Shown in pieces: positions 871 to 29,998 of a DNA stretch of 64,000 nt. The translations under genes and the position numbers were made by a program. Numbering within the stretch: position 1 is the stretch's first letter; the number at the start of each line of letters is the position of its first letter. This DNA is from a virus (Duplodnaviria > Heunggongvirae > Uroviricota > Caudoviricetes), in the IMG/VR virus record IMGVR_UViG_3300037418_000950; one strand, 5' to 3'. Under the pieces are notes generated by a model. The model ran no database searches. It had not been told where the DNA came from and worked only from the letters and a program-made list of their open reading frames with translations.

Positions 871-935
871 TGATACTCTACAGTTGTTCTAATAGGTCTT
901 ACGATATGCCTATTTAGACAACTGTAGAGCTTATG

Positions 936-1017
936 CGGAGCCCAAAGGAATCGAACCCTCAACCTTTCGGTTGGCAATCGCTTTCAAGGCGATCTGTCCC
1001 CATGGACGCTGGACTCC
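936..1017 (-). tRNA. tRNA-Ser (anticodon TGA), class II with long variable arm
   Basis: Cloverleaf read by hand on minus strand: acceptor GGAGTCC/GGGCTCC, anticodon loop CTTGAAA, variable hairpin CCAACCGAAAGGTTG, T-arm GGGTTCGATTCC. Confidence 0.7.
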
Positions 1018-10923: not shown

Positions 10924-11005
10924 ATGGAGCCCTGGACAGGAATCGAACCTGCATACTCCGATTACGTCGTTGACGACCGCTTAGAAGGCGGGGACGATAC
11001 CAGGG
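10924..11005 (-). tRNA. tRNA-Arg(TCT)-like, non-canonical (no D-arm)
   Basis: Perfect acceptor GCCCTGG/CCAGGGC, discriminator T, encoded CCA, T-arm GCAGGTTCGATTCCTGT, anticodon hairpin CCGC-CTTCTAA-GCGG. Only 7 nt lie between acceptor and anticodon stem, and a 23-nt extra region with a CGTC-AAC-GACG hairpin precedes the T-arm. Confidence 0.45.
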
Positions 11006-11016
11006 CGTAGTCGTAT

Positions 11017-11262
11017 TTATTTCGGCACTAAGCCTACTTCACCTGTAAGTTTGTCGAACGTCACACGGTAGGTTTGCACATTATGCTGAACCCAACCTTG
11101 TTTTACCAACTTGGCTTCACGCAACCTTCGAAATTCATCCAATGAGACTTTCAACGGCGGCAGCACGTCGTCGGTGCGTTCGGTTGGAAACAGTTTGGCG
11201 ACTGGTACAGTCGCAAGTCCAACCCCGAGCCCGAACAGAGCCCGTCGCGTTACTTGTTCCAT
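11017..11262 (-). CDS. small Tat-signal secreted protein
   Basis: Start at internal Met giving MEQVTRRALFGLGVGLATVPVA (twin-arginine motif TRRALF plus hydrophobic core); ATGA overlap with the upstream gene stop. Confidence 0.5.
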   Translation of the reverse strand: MEQVTRRALFGLGVGLATVPVAKLFPTERTDDVLPPLKVSLDEFRRLREAKLVKQGWVQHNVQTYRVTFDKLTGEVGLVPK

Positions 11263-11918
11263 CACTTTTGATCCCACTCTATGGCTTTTTCCCAATTGGG
11301 TTTGCCCACGTCCCCCGAGGGCAGCGATTCGGCCTTTACAGGTTCGACGATGACTTCACAAATCATGTCCTTAGTCAAACGCTGATTTGCTCCACACTTC
11401 GGTAATTGTTGGCATGTGTTATTTTTGTCAAGGTATGTTCCGTCCCCGCAACGCACGGTCGGCGCGCTATTGGCAGGCGTTGAATTGTGGCTGAACATGT
11501 ACGACCAGAACCAGATATCCCACCAAGACGTTGAAGGGGCTTGGTAAACTGGCGCGTGATAGTAATAGTCGTTATATTGATAACCAGGGGTTGTAGTATA
11601 CAGCGGACGCACGCGATAAAGTGGAGCCGTCTGAACGCGGGGGGCAGGCTGAACCGCTGGCGAGGGTTGGACCCTTGGGGTAGGCTGGATTCGCGGCCTT
11701 GGAGCAATTGTGGGGCTTGGGGATGCCTTGGGCATCGGACGGACCCGTAGCGAACTTCCGAACGACGACGATGGACGGGAAAAGGATGTTGACGGTCGAG
11801 AAAAAGAACGGGAACTGAATGAGCCGAAAGACCTTGCCGCCGCGTGGGCGTCGGAATACCAGAGCCCGAGGCAGCAAACCGACACAAAGACGGCCAGTGA
11901 AAAATTCAGAAGTTTCAT
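11262..11918 (-). CDS. secreted Ser/Pro-rich repeat protein
   Basis: 218 aa; Sec signal peptide MKLLNFSLAVFVSVCCLGLWYSDAHA, Ser-rich SFSRPS repeats, Pro repeats PRPRIQPTPRVQPSPAVQPAPRVQ, C-terminal 4-Cys domain. Confidence 0.55.
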   Translation of the reverse strand: MKLLNFSLAVFVSVCCLGLWYSDAHAAARSFGSFSSRSFSRPSTSFSRPSSSFGSSLRVRPMPKASPSPTIAPRPRIQPTPRVQPSPAVQPAPRVQTAPLYRVRPLYTTTPGYQYNDYYYHAPVYQAPSTSWWDIWFWSYMFSHNSTPANSAPTVRCGDGTYLDKNNTCQQLPKCGANQRLTKDMICEVIVEPVKAESLPSGDVGKPNWEKAIEWDQK

Positions 11919-12028
11919 GGTGTATGTCCCCCATTACATGCTGTAGAAGGTGGCCCTCTGTACGAGACTCGAACTCGTTTCGCGGCATGGACAGTGCCAT
12001 ATAATAACCCATATAAGAACAGAGGATT

Positions 12029-12516: not shown

Positions 12517-12730
12517 CCCTCATTGTCGCTAGTGCGCGCATAAAGTGATTGAAGGCTTCCACATCCACCTTTTCGTGCGGTAGCGGATAGTAGTTGGCGA
12601 AGATGGAAATGACTTTCTCGATTTCCTCTTTTTCCATCAACCCAAGCGTCGCTAGGACCGAGCCGAGAGATTCAGCAAGGTACACGCATCGCCGTTCGCT
12701 TGTAGTCAGACGGCTGTTCAAGTCGTTCAT
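12503..12730 (-). CDS. hypothetical protein
   Basis: 75 aa ORF immediately downstream of tRNA-Met. Confidence 0.4.
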   Translation of the reverse strand: MNDLNSRLTTSERRCVYLAESLGSVLATLGLMEKEEIEKVISIFANYYPLPHEKVDVEAFNHFMRALATMRDAHE

Positions 12731-12737
12731 GGTGTAA

Positions 12738-12813
12738 TGGTATCGATAGTTGGGATCGAACCAACCTTTGAGGGCTTATGAGACCCTTGCGACTACCCTG
12801 CCGCCCTACCGAC
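12738..12813 (-). tRNA. tRNA-Met (anticodon CAT; initiator/elongator/Ile-lysidine not distinguished)
   Basis: Acceptor GTCGGTA/TATCGAT, D-arm GCGG-CAGGGTAG-TCGC, anticodon arm AGGGT-CTCATAA-GCCCT, T-arm GTTGGTTCGATCCCAAC, discriminator A plus CCA. Confidence 0.7.
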
Positions 12814-18454: not shown

Positions 18455-18745
18455 TTAGGCTTTTCTAATTGTCAGATAATATTCGGCACCAGGATCGAAC
18501 TTGTTGTAGCAGTCGGGATTGGTGATGCTCATTTGCAGTTGGCCGCTTGGCGTCCACTTCGACCACGACTTATTTTCTTCACACTCGGCGGTCACAGCTT
18601 CGAACGCGACACGGATGTAAGGCGCATCCTCGGGAGTTGGCCGTTTGTCATACTGTGTGCTGACAGTTTGATTATAATCCTTATCAAAAATATGGATATA
18701 ATCGCATCGGAATTTGGCGGTTACGGTATCAGTCATAATATTCAT
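18455..18745 (-). CDS. hypothetical protein
   Basis: 96 aa ORF, directly abutting the downstream gene. Confidence 0.4.
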   Translation of the reverse strand: MNIMTDTVTAKFRCDYIHIFDKDYNQTVSTQYDKRPTPEDAPYIRVAFEAVTAECEENKSWSKWTPSGQLQMSITNPDCYNKFDPGAEYYLTIRKA

Positions 18746-18898
18746 CCTCGTGATCTACGTCTTCGACTTGGACGTATCGGTTATCGCGTGACGCACTTTT
18801 CGCTTTCTTGCGGTTACGTCGTTCGCGTTCTCTTTGTTCGCGTTCCCAATCCATATCGTCGGGTTCATCCCAACGGTACTTTTGTTTTCCTGAACGGC

Positions 18899-19504
18899 TC
18901 ATAGCGTTTCTTCTTTAGGTGCCTTCTTTTTACGTGATCGCTTGGGTTTCTCTTGCTTGGGCGGCAAGGAGTTCAAGACACTTTCAATGGTCTTATCGGT
19001 GACCCTGAATTCGTCAGGGTTCACCGTTTCCCCTACTTTCCCAATAGTCGTTTCTTCCACTTTTTGAATTTGTGGGAGAAACGTAACGTCGGGAAGTAAA
19101 TCGGGGAACGCCTCCTTTATCACATCGTATTCGAGGTTTGGATAAGGGAGGGATTTCTTGATTGCGGCTTCGATGACGCGCACGTCCCCAGGACACAGCA
19201 TTTCCAGAAGCTGAATGAACAGGTGCTCGCGCTTGGGGGGCGTCAGATTGGGGTTGCCGCCTTCGATAAACAAATACAGGCGACGCGCTTCGGCCAACAG
19301 AATGGTTTCTTGTTGCCCAACCTTATCGGGATGAAATGGGGGTAGGTCTGGACCTACAAGCCATTTGATTCCAGGATGAAGTGCATATTGTAACACAATT
19401 CGCAGGGCGTGGGTATCCTCTTGACGAAGAAATTTGACCCTTTCGTCCCTATTTTTTATTCCAGAGGCTTTCTCCAGAATTTCACTTATTCCAAGTTGAT
19501 ACAT
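18899..19504 (-). CDS. hypothetical protein
   Basis: 201 aa ORF, Lys-rich C-terminus. Confidence 0.45.
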   Translation of the reverse strand: MYQLGISEILEKASGIKNRDERVKFLRQEDTHALRIVLQYALHPGIKWLVGPDLPPFHPDKVGQQETILLAEARRLYLFIEGGNPNLTPPKREHLFIQLLEMLCPGDVRVIEAAIKKSLPYPNLEYDVIKEAFPDLLPDVTFLPQIQKVEETTIGKVGETVNPDEFRVTDKTIESVLNSLPPKQEKPKRSRKKKAPKEETL

Positions 19505-19724
19505 TAATTCTCTCTATATCGTATCTTAATTCCCAAAATAGTCGCAAGATTTTTTGAATCTCCCACCATCCACCGTCTTTGCAATTGTGATATACACAAC
19601 GGCACCCACCATTGGTGTGCATTCCTTGAGCCTTACCTTTGAGATAACAGGAAGCCATCTGAGCATCCTTTTATCTCATTCATCGCAGTATCGAATTGTT
19701 CAAGTCGTTCTTGTATGATTGTAT

Positions 19725-20000
19725 TCATTTGTTCTTATTCCAATCAATAGCTAACTGTAAATTGTAACAATATCGTTTACCTTCGAATTCTACAACGAAT
19801 TTAGGCATAAACGTTTTCATATCAACAGTCTGTGCCACGATAACAGATTTAGTATGAGGTTTGAACATGCGCGGAAGAACAGGGTGATTGATATCAGTAA
19901 TCAGTTCAACGTCACCAAGGTCTTCTAAATCGGTTGGGTCAACGGCCGTTATTGATGTTCCGTCTTCATTAAATGCTATAACTGGTTTGGGTATTTTCAT
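19725..20000 (-). CDS. hypothetical protein
   Basis: 91 aa ORF. Confidence 0.4.
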   Translation of the reverse strand: MKIPKPVIAFNEDGTSITAVDPTDLEDLGDVELITDINHPVLPRMFKPHTKSVIVAQTVDMKTFMPKFVVEFEGKRYCYNLQLAIDWNKNK

Positions 20001-20003
20001 TCT

Positions 20004-20843
20004 TTAGAAATCCTGAACAGTATCGATAAATTCTCTCAAATTCTTATCGAAAAAATAATTGAATAACTTTGCCTTTGTCTTCTTGGGGCGGTCCTCAAAT
20101 GTTTGAATAATGGGTAATTCAATCTTTTGCGGAATGCACTGTAGATCGATCAGTGTTCGGTTTCGTTCAAAGTTGCGTTTAAGCACTGAGGGATACTGAC
20201 TTGGGCAAGTGTCGGTAAGGTATTTAATACGCGCCGTACCGAGTGTTCCTTGCCGCTTCCCCAACACAAGGCAATCATCTGGAGACGCAATATTAGGTAT
20301 TCCATCAGACTTGTCCCCTTCGATGATGTGTTGTTTGAGGTAGGTGGTAGGGTCTGGATTGGAGACAAATTTCTTACCAACAGGGGAGAATTGCTTGATC
20401 CTCTTTTGCTTGTCGTGCAGTTGCACGAAATCGGTGTCGCCCGACAGGATCAGAATTTTTTGATCAGAATTGAGTTTGATCAAGGTAGCAATCACGTCGT
20501 CGGCTTCGGCGTTCTCAACATCGATGACCGTGTAGGGAAAGAACTCTTTCAGTTCGCCCTTGACAGTTTCAAAGGATGCAAAGGCTTGATCCCAATCGAT
20601 CTTGGAGTTGGCCCGTTCCTTCTTGCGGTTCGCTTTGTAGTAGGGGAACACTTCCTTACGCCAGTTCTTTCGACTATCGCAGCATATAACCACTTCCCCC
20701 CAATCCCGAAATAACTTGCGGCTATAACCGCGTAGACTTCTCAGGATGCTATATCGAATGGTTTCATCGTTTATCGGCACCTTCGTCTTTTCCATTCGGA
20801 ACAAGTTAGAGAAAGTGATTTGGTTCAAGTCAACAAGTATCAC
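20004..20843 (-). CDS. 5'-3' exonuclease / RNase H (T4 rnh-like flap endonuclease)
   Basis: 279 aa; AEADDVIATL, LILSGDTDFVQL, DGIPNI motifs and overall colinearity with T4 RNase H. Confidence 0.8.
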   Translation of the reverse strand: MILVDLNQITFSNLFRMEKTKVPINDETIRYSILRSLRGYSRKLFRDWGEVVICCDSRKNWRKEVFPYYKANRKKERANSKIDWDQAFASFETVKGELKEFFPYTVIDVENAEADDVIATLIKLNSDQKILILSGDTDFVQLHDKQKRIKQFSPVGKKFVSNPDPTTYLKQHIIEGDKSDGIPNIASPDDCLVLGKRQGTLGTARIKYLTDTCPSQYPSVLKRNFERNRTLIDLQCIPQKIELPIIQTFEDRPKKTKAKLFNYFFDKNLREFIDTVQDF

Positions 20844-22536: not shown

Positions 22537-22568
22537 ATTTTACAAATGTTTGCGAATAGATTGTTAAG

Positions 22569-22653
22569 CTCGAAGGGTAGGGCTCGAACCTACGACGGGA
22601 TTTCTCCTACGGATTAACAATCCGTTGCCTGCTACCAACTCGGCTACCTCCGA
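22569..22653 (-). tRNA. tRNA-Asn(GTT)-like with long variable arm, embedded in an extended stem
   Basis: Acceptor TCGGAGG/CCTTCGA, anticodon arm ACGGA-TTGTTAA-TCCGT, 16-nt variable region with GGA-GAAA-TCC hairpin, T-arm GTAGGTTCGAGCCCTAC. Flanks GATTGTTAAGC/GCTTAACAATC extend the acceptor helix to 18 bp. Confidence 0.45.
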
Positions 22654-28960: not shown

Positions 28961-29998
28961 TTAATGTACAGTGGCAGGTTTCTCCGCCCCGATAAGCTCT
29001 TTGAGGTGTTCAACCAAGGTCTGGCGAGCAGTGTCGCCGTTGAACTTGGTGACCTTGCCATCCTCGCGGCTTTCACCCAGAATGAACTTGGCATCCCCTG
29101 CATCGATCATGGCCAAAAGCTTCTCAGCATCAGCCGCAGTCAAAGGCTTGGGTTTCCCATCGCCACCGATACGAACGACTTGCCCATTTTTGTGTTGGGC
29201 AATGGCAATAGGTTGCAATCCTATCGACTGTAAAATATCGGCCATTATATCACGTTTCTTAACCTCTTGTCGAGGGGTTGGCCGATTCGGCAACCGCCCC
29301 GATGCGATTAATTCATCCGTAACACGTTTGGCGACTTCACGGGCGTCGATTTCCCAAGGCAGATTCTCGTAGACTTTCTGATCTTCGTCCGACTTCGGGA
29401 AATTGACCTTGGGGTCAATCGCCATGCGGTTGCCGTCCCAATAGCATACTTTCTTTCCGTCGTGGGTGTTCAGTTCGTCTTCCTTGACAACATATCGCCC
29501 ATCGATAGATTGTCGCAGGTGTTGCAGTTCGTGAACAACCGCTTCAACCGTTTCAATATCGGCTTCGTCGGCCGCCGCCCGAACGTCTTCCGTTGAATTG
29601 ACTTCGAAGTTGTTCAGGTAGAACTTTGCGATGTTGTCGGCATCAACATTTATTACAGTATGTTGCACGCCGTCATGCTTGAACGTGAGGTTGGACCCCA
29701 TCGCGCCGTCCTGAACGAACGTGAAATGCACGTTTTCAAAGTCCTTAGCCTCGTCCAGGCCAAGCTTGGAAAGAATGGCTTCGTACACACCTTCGTACTT
29801 GGCCAGTTTCTTCTTTAAGTCCTTGACACTTGACGCGAGGGCAGCTTTTCTCTTTTGACATTTCGGGCAGTTACAAGTATCCGCCCATTTGTTTAAGGCT
29901 TCGTCCCCAATGAGTTCACGAACTTTCTCGGGGTTAAGAAGGTCCCTCAATACTTCGTCGTCTAAGAGACTCAGTATCTTGGTTTTTACGTCAGACAT
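28961..29998 (-). CDS. HExxH motif protein with N-terminal zinc ribbon
   Basis: 345 aa; CNCPKCQKRK, VHELQHLRQ, NLPWEIDAREVAKR; shares HExxH...PWEIDA with 16293..16745. Confidence 0.45.
   Translation of the reverse strand: MSDVKTKILSLLDDEVLRDLLNPEKVRELIGDEALNKWADTCNCPKCQKRKAALASSVKDLKKKLAKYEGVYEAILSKLGLDEAKDFENVHFTFVQDGAMGSNLTFKHDGVQHTVINVDADNIAKFYLNNFEVNSTEDVRAAADEADIETVEAVVHELQHLRQSIDGRYVVKEDELNTHDGKKVCYWDGNRMAIDPKVNFPKSDEDQKVYENLPWEIDAREVAKRVTDELIASGRLPNRPTPRQEVKKRDIMADILQSIGLQPIAIAQHKNGQVVRIGGDGKPKPLTAADAEKLLAMIDAGDAKFILGESREDGKVTKFNGDTARQTLVEHLKELIGAEKPATVH

What the first reader, a model, noticed from the sequence alone, without database searches (positions are those of the whole stretch)
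10924..11005. D-arm-less tRNA-Arg(TCT)-like gene with encoded CCA
The minus-strand RNA has a perfect 7-bp acceptor stem, discriminator plus CCA, a canonical T-arm and an Arg-type anticodon hairpin (CTTCTAA loop, compare E. coli tRNA-Arg UCU). Only 7 nt separate the acceptor from the anticodon stem, so there is no D-arm. An extra 23 nt carrying a CGTC-AAC-GACG hairpin sits where the variable loop should be. This is not a normal bacterial or phage tRNA. It could be a permuted or armless tRNA, a decoy for tRNA-targeting defence nucleases or anticodon nucleases, or a pseudogene.
Basis: seen in the sequence. Interest (0 to 1): 0.55.

Follow-up and report, generated by a model that had tools for sequence, protein, structure and literature searches.

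The report
Rearranged phage arginine tRNA gene
This is a phage gene for an arginine tRNA whose D-arm is assembled in an unusual order, and it belongs to a large, mostly unannotated, phage-only class of arginine and isoleucine tRNAs that do not follow the standard cloverleaf.

Summary
The element is real, but it lies at 11006..10925 on the minus strand, one base off the reported range. It has a 7-bp acceptor stem, U73-CCA, a GUUCGAU T-arm and a CUUCUAA (anticodon UCU) hairpin, and it has no D hairpin. ARAGORN misses it. Rfam's tRNA model gives 29.7 bits against a threshold of 29, with the D-arm deleted.

It is not a pseudogene. About 190 distinct relatives occur in phage contigs and isolates, including Kuravirus, where it is the annotated "tRNA-Arg(TCT)", and Streptomyces BE phages. 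Almost none occur in bacterial genomes.

GACG instead pairs with the CGUC that follows U8-A9-U10, forming a helix (P2) that encloses the anticodon arm. P2 is followed by a conserved D-loop-like strand, UAAUYGGAGUAU.

All members carry Arg (UCU/CCU/UCG/ACG), Ile (UAU/GAU) or CAU anticodons. The base after GG is A in 106/107 Arg members and U in 66/67 Ile/CAU members. This matches the ArgRS A20 and IleRS U20 identity rules.

Best reading: a functional AGA/AGG-decoding tRNA-Arg of a rearranged, phage-specific tRNA architecture. I found no published description of this architecture. Expression, charging and 3D fold are untested.

The parts
10925..11006 (-). Whole gene: 82-nt noncanonical tRNA-Arg(UCU), G1 at 11006 and A76 of the encoded CCA at 10925
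   Evidence: Sequence. RF00005 29.7 bits over 10928-11006. Family model R1 94.7 bits over 10925-11006.
11000..11006 (-). Acceptor stem 5' strand, GCCCUGG
   Evidence: Pairs with 10929-10935. All 7 pairs show both-sided changes across the family, with 99.5% of cells paired.
10997..10999 (-). Connector U8-A9-U10, invariant in the family
   Evidence: Invariant in 69/69 S1 sequences, although it was not part of the search pattern used for that set.
10993..10996 (-). P2 helix 5' strand, CGUC; proposed equivalent of the D-stem 3' strand (positions 22-25)
   Evidence: Pairs with 10965-10968. Pair 12-41: UA32/AU10/GC9/CG1, none unpaired. Pair 13-40: CG42/UA6/GC4, none unpaired. In an all-against-all mutual-information scan these pairs rank 4th and 9th.
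10976..10992 (-). Anticodon arm: stem CCCGC/GCGGU (first pair is a C.U mismatch), loop CUUCUAA, anticodon UCU at 10985-10983
   Evidence: Four Watson-Crick pairs with compensatory changes. U33, C35 and A37 are invariant.
10969..10975 (-). Conserved 3'-strand bulge CGUCAAC (family consensus C-R-U-Y-A-A-N).
   Evidence: C32, U34, A36 and A37 are invariant. Pairing with 10965-10968 is rejected at family level.
10965..10968 (-). P2 helix 3' strand, GACG; proposed equivalent of the D-stem 5' strand (positions 10-13)
   Evidence: Covaries with 10993-10996. The same helix is paired in 87/87 sequences of the sister subfamily.
10953..10964 (-). D-loop-like strand UAAUCGGAGUAU, with GG at 10959-10958 and an A20-like base at 10957
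   Evidence: Conserved even when it is not part of the search pattern. The base after GG tracks anticodon class: A in 106/107 Arg members, U in 66/67 Ile/CAU members. Canonical phage tRNAs give the same pattern as a control.
10936..10952 (-). T-arm GCAGG-UUCGAUU-CCUGU
   Evidence: 98.8% of cells paired, with 3 pairs showing both-sided changes. Aligned to the RF00005 T-arm.
10925..10935 (-). Acceptor stem 3' strand CCAGGGC, discriminator U (10928), encoded CCA (10927-10925)
   Evidence: Sequence. CCA is encoded in 71/107 Arg members.

Best explanation
The locus encodes a functional tRNA-Arg (anticodon UCU, reading AGA/AGG) belonging to a phage-specific class of tRNAs with a rearranged core.

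[quoted passage not shown] The D-arm is not a hairpin. After U8-A9-U10 comes one strand of a short helix (P2), then the anticodon arm and a conserved bulge, then the other P2 strand. That strand is followed by a single-stranded D-loop-like segment (A-A-U-Y-G-G-A-G-U-A) that runs directly into the T-stem.

I infer that P2 stacks on the anticodon stem as the D-stem does in a normal tRNA. I infer that the GG contacts the T-loop as G18-G19 do, and that the following A serves as the ArgRS determinant A20. On this reading the host ArgRS charges the RNA and it supplies AGA/AGG decoding for phage mRNAs.

Shown here: the secondary structure by covariation, restriction of the class to phages, restriction to Arg and Ile(+CAU) anticodons, and co-variation of identity positions.

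Inferred: transcription, end processing, charging, ribosomal decoding and the 3D arrangement.
For: Structure:
- In 52 relatives, 94.6% of cells pair and the covariation score is 0.763 against 0.187 for shuffles (0/500 reach it). The P2 pairs 12-41 and 13-40 are never unpaired and show 4 and 3 pair types.
- An unbiased mutual-information scan ranks these pairs among the acceptor and anticodon-stem pairs.
- P2 is paired in 87/87 sequences of an independently retrieved sister subfamily.

Identity:
- Among 174 distinct members the only anticodons are UCU, CCU, UCG, ACG, UAU, GAU and CAU.
- The base after GG is A in 106/107 Arg members and U in 66/67 Ile/CAU members.
- The discriminator is A in 62/62 Ile members and G/A (plus a minority of U) in Arg members.
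- These match the bacterial identity sets in PMC9976931: Arg is A20, C35, U/G36, A/G/U73; Ile is A73, U20 and others.
- Canonical tRNAs in the same phage loci show GG-A in 85/100 Arg tRNAs and rarely in other isotypes.

Context:
- Members sit inside phage tRNA arrays. In 33 of 36 arrays with at least 10 tRNAs, no canonical Arg(tct) was called in the stretch held, and canonical Arg(acg) is common there.
- In the 38-kb tRNA region of Streptomyces phage Yaboi, the annotated tRNAs cover all 20 amino acids but include no Arg(tct) or Arg(cct). Model R1 finds a UCU and a CCU member there.
- L128 carries two members, UCG and UCU, 300 nt apart.
- In Kuravirus TH42 the only tRNA-like hit in the whole genome is the family member. 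The Kuravirus literature reports a single tRNA-Arg(TCT), with AGA making up 20% of Arg codons against 3.6% in E. coli (PMC9965538).

Window:
- It is a T4-like lytic phage carrying other tRNAs on the same strand.
- AGA plus AGG make up 16.5% of its Arg codons.
Against: - There are no expression, processing, aminoacylation or decoding data for any member.
- RNAalifold does not predict P2.
- The window copy has U73, the minority discriminator among Arg members (10/107).
- A sub-branch has leader and trailer extending the acceptor stem by 12-15 bp and has no CCA. One such copy sits 13 nt from a canonical tRNA-Arg(tct). This fits an ordinary decoder less easily.
- Retrieval patterns fixed parts of the D-loop-like and T-loop sequence, so same-fold members of other isotypes could have been missed. 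This is only partly offset by the covariance-model searches.
- The proposed 3D equivalence to a D-arm is an inference from sequence.
Confidence: 0.72

Rival explanations
1. It is a tRNA-like decoy or sponge rather than a decoder. The RNA would display a tRNA-Arg(UCU) anticodon arm and elbow to bind or absorb a host factor, such as an anticodon nuclease, another tRNA-targeting defence, or a modification enzyme. It would not be used on the ribosome.
For: - The core is noncanonical, and standard tRNA finders reject it.
- Seven of 77 S1 members have a 19-22 bp closing helix and no CCA. One of them lies beside a canonical tRNA-Arg(tct).
- A few phages carry both a canonical Arg(tct) and a UCU member (L063, L120).
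- Phage tRNAs are known to counter tRNA-targeting defences (title and abstract of PMC10264068, listed).
Against: - A decoy does not need synthetase identity elements. Yet the discriminator and the base after GG switch together with the anticodon class in 172/174 sequences.
- The anticodons span several Arg and Ile isoacceptors, including two in one phage.
- CCA is encoded in 71/107 Arg members.
- In most large arrays no canonical Arg(tct) was called alongside the member.
Confidence: 0.12
2. One reading: a D-armless tRNA with a 7-nt connector and a local CGUC-AAC-GACG hairpin in an enlarged variable region.
For: The hairpin can be drawn in the window sequence, and its energy is close to that of the P2 fold, -25.9 against -26.6 kcal/mol. 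The RF00005 alignment also places these nucleotides in a variable-region insertion.
Against: Across 52 relatives, pairs 33-41 and 35-39 of that hairpin are unpaired in 36/52 sequences and show no consistent compensation. The competing P2 pairs are never broken. The upstream arm of the hairpin belongs to a conserved C-R-U-Y-A-A-N motif that does not track the downstream strand.
Confidence: 0.04
3. It is a degenerate tRNA pseudogene or a chance tRNA-like sequence.
For: The Rfam score is marginal (29.7 against 29), there is no ARAGORN call, and the discriminator is U73.
Against: There are about 190 distinct relatives of fixed length (82, 80-81 or 79 nt). They have compensatory changes in all helices and invariant loop positions, and they occur in unrelated phages of Streptomyces, E. 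coli and uncultured hosts.
Confidence: 0.02
4. It is a tRNA-like processing signal. RNase P and RNase Z/E would cleave at it to separate mRNAs, and the excised RNA would have no further role.
For: It is wedged between two ORFs on the same strand, 10 nt after a stop codon and 13 nt before a start codon. The long-stem variants look like processing helices.
Against: A cleavage signal does not require an invariant anticodon loop, restriction to Arg and Ile anticodons, or co-varying identity nucleotides. Most members sit in tRNA arrays rather than between mRNAs.
Confidence: 0.05

Closest known systems
Canonical bacterial and phage tRNA-Arg(UCU), such as E. coli argU, and the canonical Arg(tct) genes in L063 and L124
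   Same: 7-bp acceptor stem, discriminator plus CCA, 5-bp T-stem with a GUUCGA loop, C-U-U-C-U-A-A anticodon loop, and a G-G-A motif of the D-loop type. It probably reads the same codons and probably uses the same synthetase.
   Different: There is no D hairpin. One strand of the D-stem-like helix lies 5' of the anticodon arm. The other strand, together with the D-loop-like sequence, lies 3' of it, where the variable loop should be. RF00005 gives 29.7 bits for the window copy and 29-36 for relatives, against 46-73 bits for canonical neighbours.
The 'single tRNA-Arg(TCT)' annotated in Kuravirus-like coliphages (phiEco32 group; PMC9965538)
   Same: Same family. In Kuravirus TH42 the only tRNA-model hit in the genome is a member that scores 98.2 bits with the family model. 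The gene is therefore already annotated as tRNA-Arg in those phages.
   Different: The Kuravirus and Bas93 copies have the acceptor stem extended by 12-15 bp of leader-trailer pairing and end in G-C-U-A rather than N-CCA. The window copy has a plain 7-bp stem and an encoded CCA. None of the papers I read mentions the unusual fold.
D-armless metazoan mitochondrial tRNAs, such as mt-tRNA-Ser(AGY/UCU)
   Same: There is no D hairpin between the acceptor and anticodon stems, and the anticodon-side helix is longer than 5 bp.
   Different: The mitochondrial tRNAs have a short D-replacement loop, often a reduced T-arm, and no G18-G19 elbow contact. This class keeps a full T-arm and a D-loop-like GG strand, is 79-82 nt long, and is found in phages. 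ARAGORN's mitochondrial modes do not call it.
Permuted tRNA genes of Cyanidioschyzon merolae
   Same: The order of tRNA segments along the gene differs from the cloverleaf order.
   Different: Those genes are circular permutations in which the 3' half precedes the 5' half. They are repaired by splicing through a circular intermediate, so the mature tRNA is canonical. Here both acceptor strands sit at the gene termini, and the rearrangement is internal and would persist in the mature RNA.
YrlA (bacterial and phage Y RNA with a tRNA-like domain)
   Same: A noncanonical tRNA-like RNA encoded by phages. Ro-like protein genes lie a few kb away in the Streptomyces phages.
   Different: From my own knowledge of the YrlA literature: YrlA has no free CCA end, its ends emerge from the anticodon-stem side as a Ro-binding helix, and it has no anticodon loop. 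Tested here: the window RNA has an acceptor end with CCA and an invariant anticodon loop, and no Rfam family other than tRNA matches it.

Membership tests
tRNA (Rfam RF00005, canonical cloverleaf) | 7-bp acceptor stem closing the molecule, followed by a discriminator (and CCA) | tested here: met
   GCCCUGG/CCAGGGC, then U73 and CCA. The stem covaries across the family.
tRNA (Rfam RF00005, canonical cloverleaf) | T-arm: 5-bp stem with a 7-nt loop carrying the UUCGA consensus | tested here: met
   GCAGG-UUCGAUU-CCUGU aligns to the model's T-arm.
tRNA (Rfam RF00005, canonical cloverleaf) | Anticodon arm with a 7-nt loop, U33 and a purine at position 37 | tested here: met
   Loop C-U-U-C-U-A-A. 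The stem covaries.
tRNA (Rfam RF00005, canonical cloverleaf) | D-arm hairpin (stem 10-13/22-25 enclosing the D-loop) between position 9 and the anticodon stem | tested here: not met
   cmscan replaces 15 model positions with 4 nt. Only 8 nt separate the acceptor stem from the anticodon stem.
tRNA (Rfam RF00005, canonical cloverleaf) | Score at or above the curated gathering threshold (29 bits), and a call by standard tRNA finders | tested here: inconclusive
   29.7 bits in a local E-value scan, but not reported in the whole-window gathering scan. ARAGORN makes no call. About 9 of 20 relatives pass, at 29-36 bits.
Bacterial tRNA-Arg identity set (PMC9976931, Table 1) | C35 and U/G36 in the anticodon | tested here: met
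   Anticodon UCU. C35 is invariant in Arg members.
Bacterial tRNA-Arg identity set (PMC9976931, Table 1) | A20 in the D-loop | tested here: inconclusive
   An A follows GG in the D-loop-like strand (10957). This holds in 106/107 Arg members, against U in 66/67 Ile/CAU members. Whether it occupies the position-20 pocket in 3D cannot be tested with these tools.
Bacterial tRNA-Arg identity set (PMC9976931, Table 1) | Discriminator A/G73 (U73 is also listed) | tested here: met
   The window has U73. Family Arg members have G in 55, A in 41, U in 10 and C in 1.
Bacterial tRNA-Arg identity set (PMC9976931, Table 1) | Arginylation by ArgRS | not testable with these tools
   Requires an in vitro charging assay or an acid-gel or periodate assay on RNA from infected cells.
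Rearranged phage tRNA class, subfamily S1 (defined here; model R1) | Layout: acceptor stem, UAU, P2 strand, anticodon arm, C-R-U-Y-A-A-N bulge, P2 strand, UAAnYGGAGUAU, T-arm, acceptor stem. Length 81-82 nt. | tested here: met
   94.7 bits, full-length match at 10925-11006. All motifs are present.
D-armless mitochondrial-type tRNA | A short unpaired D-replacement connector with no helix formed by it; detectable by mitochondrial tRNA models | tested here: not met
   Four of the connector nucleotides form the covarying P2 helix. ARAGORN -mt and -mtmam find nothing.
Circularly permuted tRNA gene | The 3' half is encoded upstream of the 5' half, with acceptor strands internal to the gene | tested here: not met
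   The acceptor 5' and 3' strands are at the two ends of the gene, with CCA at the 3' end.
tmRNA / YrlA / other curated tRNA-like RNAs | A match to the corresponding Rfam or ARAGORN model | tested here: not met
   ARAGORN finds no tmRNA. cmscan at E-value up to 10 reports only RF00005; one lower-scoring overlapping match to a family of the same clan was left out.

The most novel reading that the evidence does not exclude
Phages carry a natural tRNA fold with different chain connectivity from the cloverleaf. The D-stem 5' strand and the D-loop have moved to the 3' side of the anticodon arm. The fold nevertheless rebuilds an L-shape, is charged by host ArgRS or IleRS, and decodes on bacterial ribosomes. 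It has spread horizontally among unrelated phages, is restricted to Arg and Ile (rare-codon) tRNAs, and may help them escape host factors that recognise the canonical tRNA core. It has gone undescribed because tRNA finders miss it or mislabel it.
Probability: 0.45. Interest if true: 0.9.

Novelty: new variant of a known kind. Interest (0 to 1): 0.78.

Why it matters
[quoted passage not shown] If members of this class are charged and used in translation, they would be natural non-cloverleaf tRNAs working with bacterial synthetases, EF-Tu and ribosomes.

That would show which core connections a tRNA can change while remaining functional. It would also offer a ready-made noncanonical scaffold for tRNA engineering. 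It raises the question of why phages keep this fold specifically for the Arg (AGA/AGG, CGN) and Ile (AUA, AUY) decoders.

There is a practical side too. ARAGORN misses 170 of 174 members. Curated genomes leave them unannotated or mislabel them: tRNA-Val(aac) in Yaboi, a tRNA-Leu feature over the match in EGole, and no annotation in most Streptomyces BE phages. Phage tRNA inventories and codon-compensation analyses are therefore systematically incomplete for these codons.

Tried and rejected
Tested on 52 relatives and rejected.
- **Forced cloverleaf.** ARAGORN at a relaxed threshold (-ps80) uses the CUUCUAA hairpin as the D-arm and CAACGAC as the anticodon loop, giving 'Arg(acg)'. Yaboi's annotation of its member as Val(aac) puts the anticodon in the same conserved bulge. 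I rejected this reading. Its anticodon stem would be built from invariant bases with an invariant C32.A44 mismatch (column counts). Its 'anticodon' would fall on the covarying P2 strand and so change isotype at random.
- **Thermodynamic prediction.** The single-sequence MFE fold gives an unrelated fold. RNAalifold recovers only the acceptor, anticodon and T helices. Neither helps with P2.
- **Window relatives.** Megablast of 24 kb of the window against phage records found no match. An exact 24-mer from the window's T-arm and acceptor found nothing in IMG/VR.
- **Bacterial genomes.** The scan gave 11 pattern hits, of which only 4 are real members by the covariance model. All 4 are on short MAG contigs.
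- **Conserved protein partner.** I looked within ±3 kb of 167 loci. The only clusters shared across both subfamilies that could be labelled were HNH-type endonuclease genes. No dedicated synthetase, ligase or nuclease was found. The window's flanking ORFs have no Pfam or PHROG match.
- **Literature.** Nine full-text searches for a prior description of the fold found none. Reading a 2020 review of noncanonical tRNAs also found none. The phiEco32 genome paper could not be retrieved.
- **YrlA/Ro, tmRNA, attP fragment, permuted gene.** Considered and set aside on anatomy (see the membership rows).

Full report
**1. The observation**

Read on the minus strand, window 11006..10925 is GCCCUGG-UAU-CGUC-CCCGC-CUUCUAA-GCGGU-CGUCAAC-GACG-UAAUCGGAGUAU-GCAGG-UUCGAUU-CCUGU-CCAGGGC-U-CCA.

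The acceptor stem, U73-CCA, the T-arm and the CUUCUAA hairpin are all as described. ARAGORN lists seven tRNAs in the window but not this one. Its intron and mitochondrial modes also find nothing.

Rfam's tRNA model does not report the element in the whole-window gathering scan. A local scan gives 29.7 bits against a threshold of 29. In that alignment 15 D-arm positions are replaced by 4 nt and 20 nt are inserted in the variable region.

**2. It is one of many**

A sensitive blastn of 1.3 kb around the element matched only the ~80 nt of the element itself. The hits were Streptomyces phages (Yaboi, Francob, Genie2 and others) and E. coli phages (Bas93, Bas94, Kuravirus TH42), at 80-89% identity with unrelated flanks.

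Three degenerate-pattern scans of IMG/VR recovered about 70 distinct full-length relatives, which I call subfamily S1. The same pattern gave only 11 hits in one genome per species for 185,579 bacterial and archaeal species. Only 4 of those 11 are real by the family covariance model, and all 4 lie on short MAG contigs.

The window itself is a lytic T4-like phage. It encodes ribonucleotide reductase, a DnaB-like helicase, UvsX and a gp43-type polymerase that is 40% identical to cyanophage polymerases.

**3. Structure**

I tested a structure on an alignment of 52 distinct S1 sequences. It has four helices: acceptor 1-7/72-78, P2 11-14/39-42, anticodon stem 15-19/27-31 and T-stem 55-59/67-71.
- 94.6% of cells pair. 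The covariation score is 0.763 against 0.187 for shuffles (0/500 reach it) and at most 0.157 for slid registers.
- Within P2, 11-42 is an invariant C-G.
- Pair 12-41 is UA32/AU10/GC9/CG1 and pair 13-40 is CG42/UA6/GC4. Neither has an unpaired case.
- Pair 14-39 is Watson-Crick in a minority of sequences, including the window. Otherwise it is A.C or C.A, and it still co-varies.
- An all-against-all mutual-information scan, made without any structure input, ranks 12-41 fourth and 13-40 ninth among all column pairs.

In the window both folds can be drawn because CGUC occurs twice, and their energies are about equal at -26.6 and -25.9 kcal/mol. Only the comparative data decide between them. RNAalifold predicts neither helix, so P2 rests on covariation and not on thermodynamics.

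**4. The strand after P2 looks like a D-loop**

Columns 43-54 read U-A-A-n-Y-G-G-A-G-U-A-U. This strand stays conserved when the search pattern does not include it. Among the roughly 80 genuine hits of a 5'-half pattern, only three vary in this strand, and all three keep the GG.

From my own knowledge, A-R-Y-Y-G-G-A-U-A is the D-loop of E. coli and T4 tRNA-Arg.

Geometry leads to the model I propose. The P2 end that carries the anticodon stem corresponds to the 10-25 end of a D-stem. The 5' P2 strand therefore runs as positions 22-25 do, and the 3' P2 strand as positions 10-13 do. The 3' strand is followed by the D-loop (14-21), as in a normal tRNA, except that the chain then enters the T-stem instead of returning to form 22-25.

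In effect, the segment 10-21 has been moved from before the anticodon arm to after it. This is an inference, as no 3D tool for RNA was available.

**5. A sister subfamily and the isotype rule**

The family model R1 scores S1 members at 85-98 bits and canonical tRNAs at 33 bits or less. It also found intermediate hits at 42-77 bits with the same layout.

I call this subfamily S2. A 79-nt variant group also exists.

In 87 S2 sequences of 80 nt, the three P2 pairs are each paired in 87/87 sequences and show 4, 3 and 2 pair types.

Across 174 parsed members, the anticodons are only Arg (UCU, CCU, UCG, ACG), Ile (UAU, GAU) and CAU:
- The base after GG is A in 106/107 Arg members and U in 66/67 Ile/CAU members.
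- The discriminator is A in all 62 Ile members and all 5 CAU members.
- In Arg members the discriminator is G in 55, A in 41, U in 10 and C in 1.

These are the bacterial identity sets tabulated in PMC9976931. For Arg: A20, C35, U/G36, A/G/U73. For Ile: A73, U20 and others.

As an internal control I used 1,281 canonical tRNAs called in the same loci. GG-A appears in 85/100 Arg tRNAs and is rare in every other isotype. Ile tRNAs have GG-U in 52/65.

This correlation is the strongest argument for two points. First, the GG-N motif acts as G18-G19-N20. Second, the RNAs are substrates of ArgRS and IleRS.

**6. Genomic role**

Members usually lie inside phage tRNA arrays.
- Of 36 loci with at least 10 tRNAs, 33 have no canonical Arg(tct) called, and Arg(acg) is common there. 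In two of the three exceptions the member carries UCG or CCU instead of UCU.
- In the 38-kb tRNA region of Yaboi, the annotated tRNAs cover all 20 amino acids, including Arg(tcg) and Arg(acg), but not Arg(tct) or Arg(cct). The model finds a UCU member (mis-annotated as tRNA-Val(aac)) and unannotated CCU and GAU members.
- L128 carries UCG and UCU members 300 nt apart.
- In Kuravirus TH42, ARAGORN finds no tRNA at all. Rfam finds exactly one hit, and it is the family member. The 'single tRNA-Arg(TCT)' described for Kuravirus-like phages is therefore this gene. That literature reports AGA as 20% of Arg codons against 3.6% in E. coli K-12 (PMC9965538).
- In the window, AGA and AGG are 9.5% and 7.0% of Arg codons. 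No other Arg tRNA was found in the 64 kb.

**7. What does not fit**

Seven of 77 S1 members have 12-15 extra base pairs of leader-trailer pairing that continue the acceptor stem. They end in G-C-U/A-A instead of N-CCA. This group includes Bas93, and TH42 is similar with two mismatches. One such copy (L063) lies 13 nt from a canonical tRNA-Arg(tct). These helices may be processing helices, or this branch may have another role. I could not decide between the two.

I also have no tested explanation for why the fold exists or why it is limited to Arg and Ile. Single-base anticodon shifts (UCU to UAU, and UAU to CAU or GAU) would link the isotypes by descent, but that is speculation.

HNH endonuclease genes lie within 3 kb in 34 of 167 loci of both subfamilies. 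This may help explain the horizontal spread of the family.

**8. Comparison with what is known, and novelty**

The RNA works like a tRNA-Arg, and it meets every tRNA criterion I could test except the D hairpin. It is not a mitochondrial-type armless tRNA, a circularly permuted gene, a YrlA or a tmRNA (see the membership rows).

The gene is already annotated as tRNA-Arg in Kuraviruses. Elsewhere it is mislabelled or left unannotated:
- ARAGORN misses 170 of 174 members.
- About half of a 20-locus sample passes Rfam, at 29-36 bits.
- S2 members are unannotated in most of the Streptomyces phage records listed.

Nine full-text searches and a 2020 review of noncanonical tRNAs gave no description of this architecture. 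A 2024 abstract states that all known bacterial tRNAs are cloverleaves. The library is incomplete, so a prior description cannot be excluded.

**9. Verdict**

It is a conserved, probably functional tRNA-Arg(UCU) of a widespread phage-specific class with a rearranged D-arm. Confidence is 0.72 that it is a charged, decoding tRNA. Confidence in the specific 3D model is lower, about one in two.

Noticed in passing
window 22568-22653 (-): tRNA-Asn(gtt) is 86 nt long and has a 12-nt insertion in the variable region in the Rfam alignment. This is unusual for an Asn tRNA.
   Followed up: no
window 935-1017, 11951-12025, 12738-12813 (-): Three tRNAs called by ARAGORN (Ser tga, Asp gtc, Met cat) do not reach the RF00005 gathering score in the whole-window scan. 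Several of this phage's tRNAs are therefore divergent.
   Followed up: no
L143 (Yaboi NC_048730): 29005-29084 and 12543-12622; record 91004-91083 and 74542-74621: Two unannotated intergenic members of the same architecture, with anticodons CCU (Arg) and GAU (Ile). The GAU copy starts 10 nt after a nucleotidyltransferase gene. The annotated tRNA-Val(aac) at record 86686-86764 is actually the UCU member.
   Followed up: partly
L003 (Bas93) 1480-1590; L144 (TH42) 19246-19327; L007, L010, L031, L041, L063, L129: A sub-branch in which leader and trailer extend the acceptor stem to 19-22 bp and the 3' end reads G-C-U/A-A instead of N-CCA. In L063 a canonical tRNA-Arg(tct) lies 13 nt away.
   Followed up: partly
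L208 869-1125 (-): Three isoleucine tRNA genes lie in a row: S1-type Ile(UAU), S2-type Ile(GAU) and a canonical Ile(GAU).
   Followed up: no
L128 3788-3868 and 4087-4167 (+): Two S1 members with different Arg anticodons (UCG and UCU) lie 300 nt apart on one 170-kb phage contig.
   Followed up: partly
Within ±3 kb of members in 34 of 167 loci (e.g. L208 ORF, L183 ORF; Bas93_0084 in L003 1034-1483): HNH-type (homing) endonuclease genes, some with N-terminal HTH repeats, recur next to members of both subfamilies. This could explain how near-identical tRNA genes occur in unrelated phages.
   Followed up: partly
L002 (Francob) 1-162; L143 (Yaboi) 18557-20182: Ro-like RNA-binding protein genes lie a few kb from the noncanonical tRNAs in Streptomyces phages. 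No link between them was established.
   Followed up: no
window 11262-11918 (-): An ORF of 218 aa with a hydrophobic N-terminus and a long Ser/Pro/Arg-rich repeat region (SFSRPS..., PRVQP...). It has no Pfam or PHROG match and overlaps the ORF just upstream of the tRNA gene.
   Followed up: no
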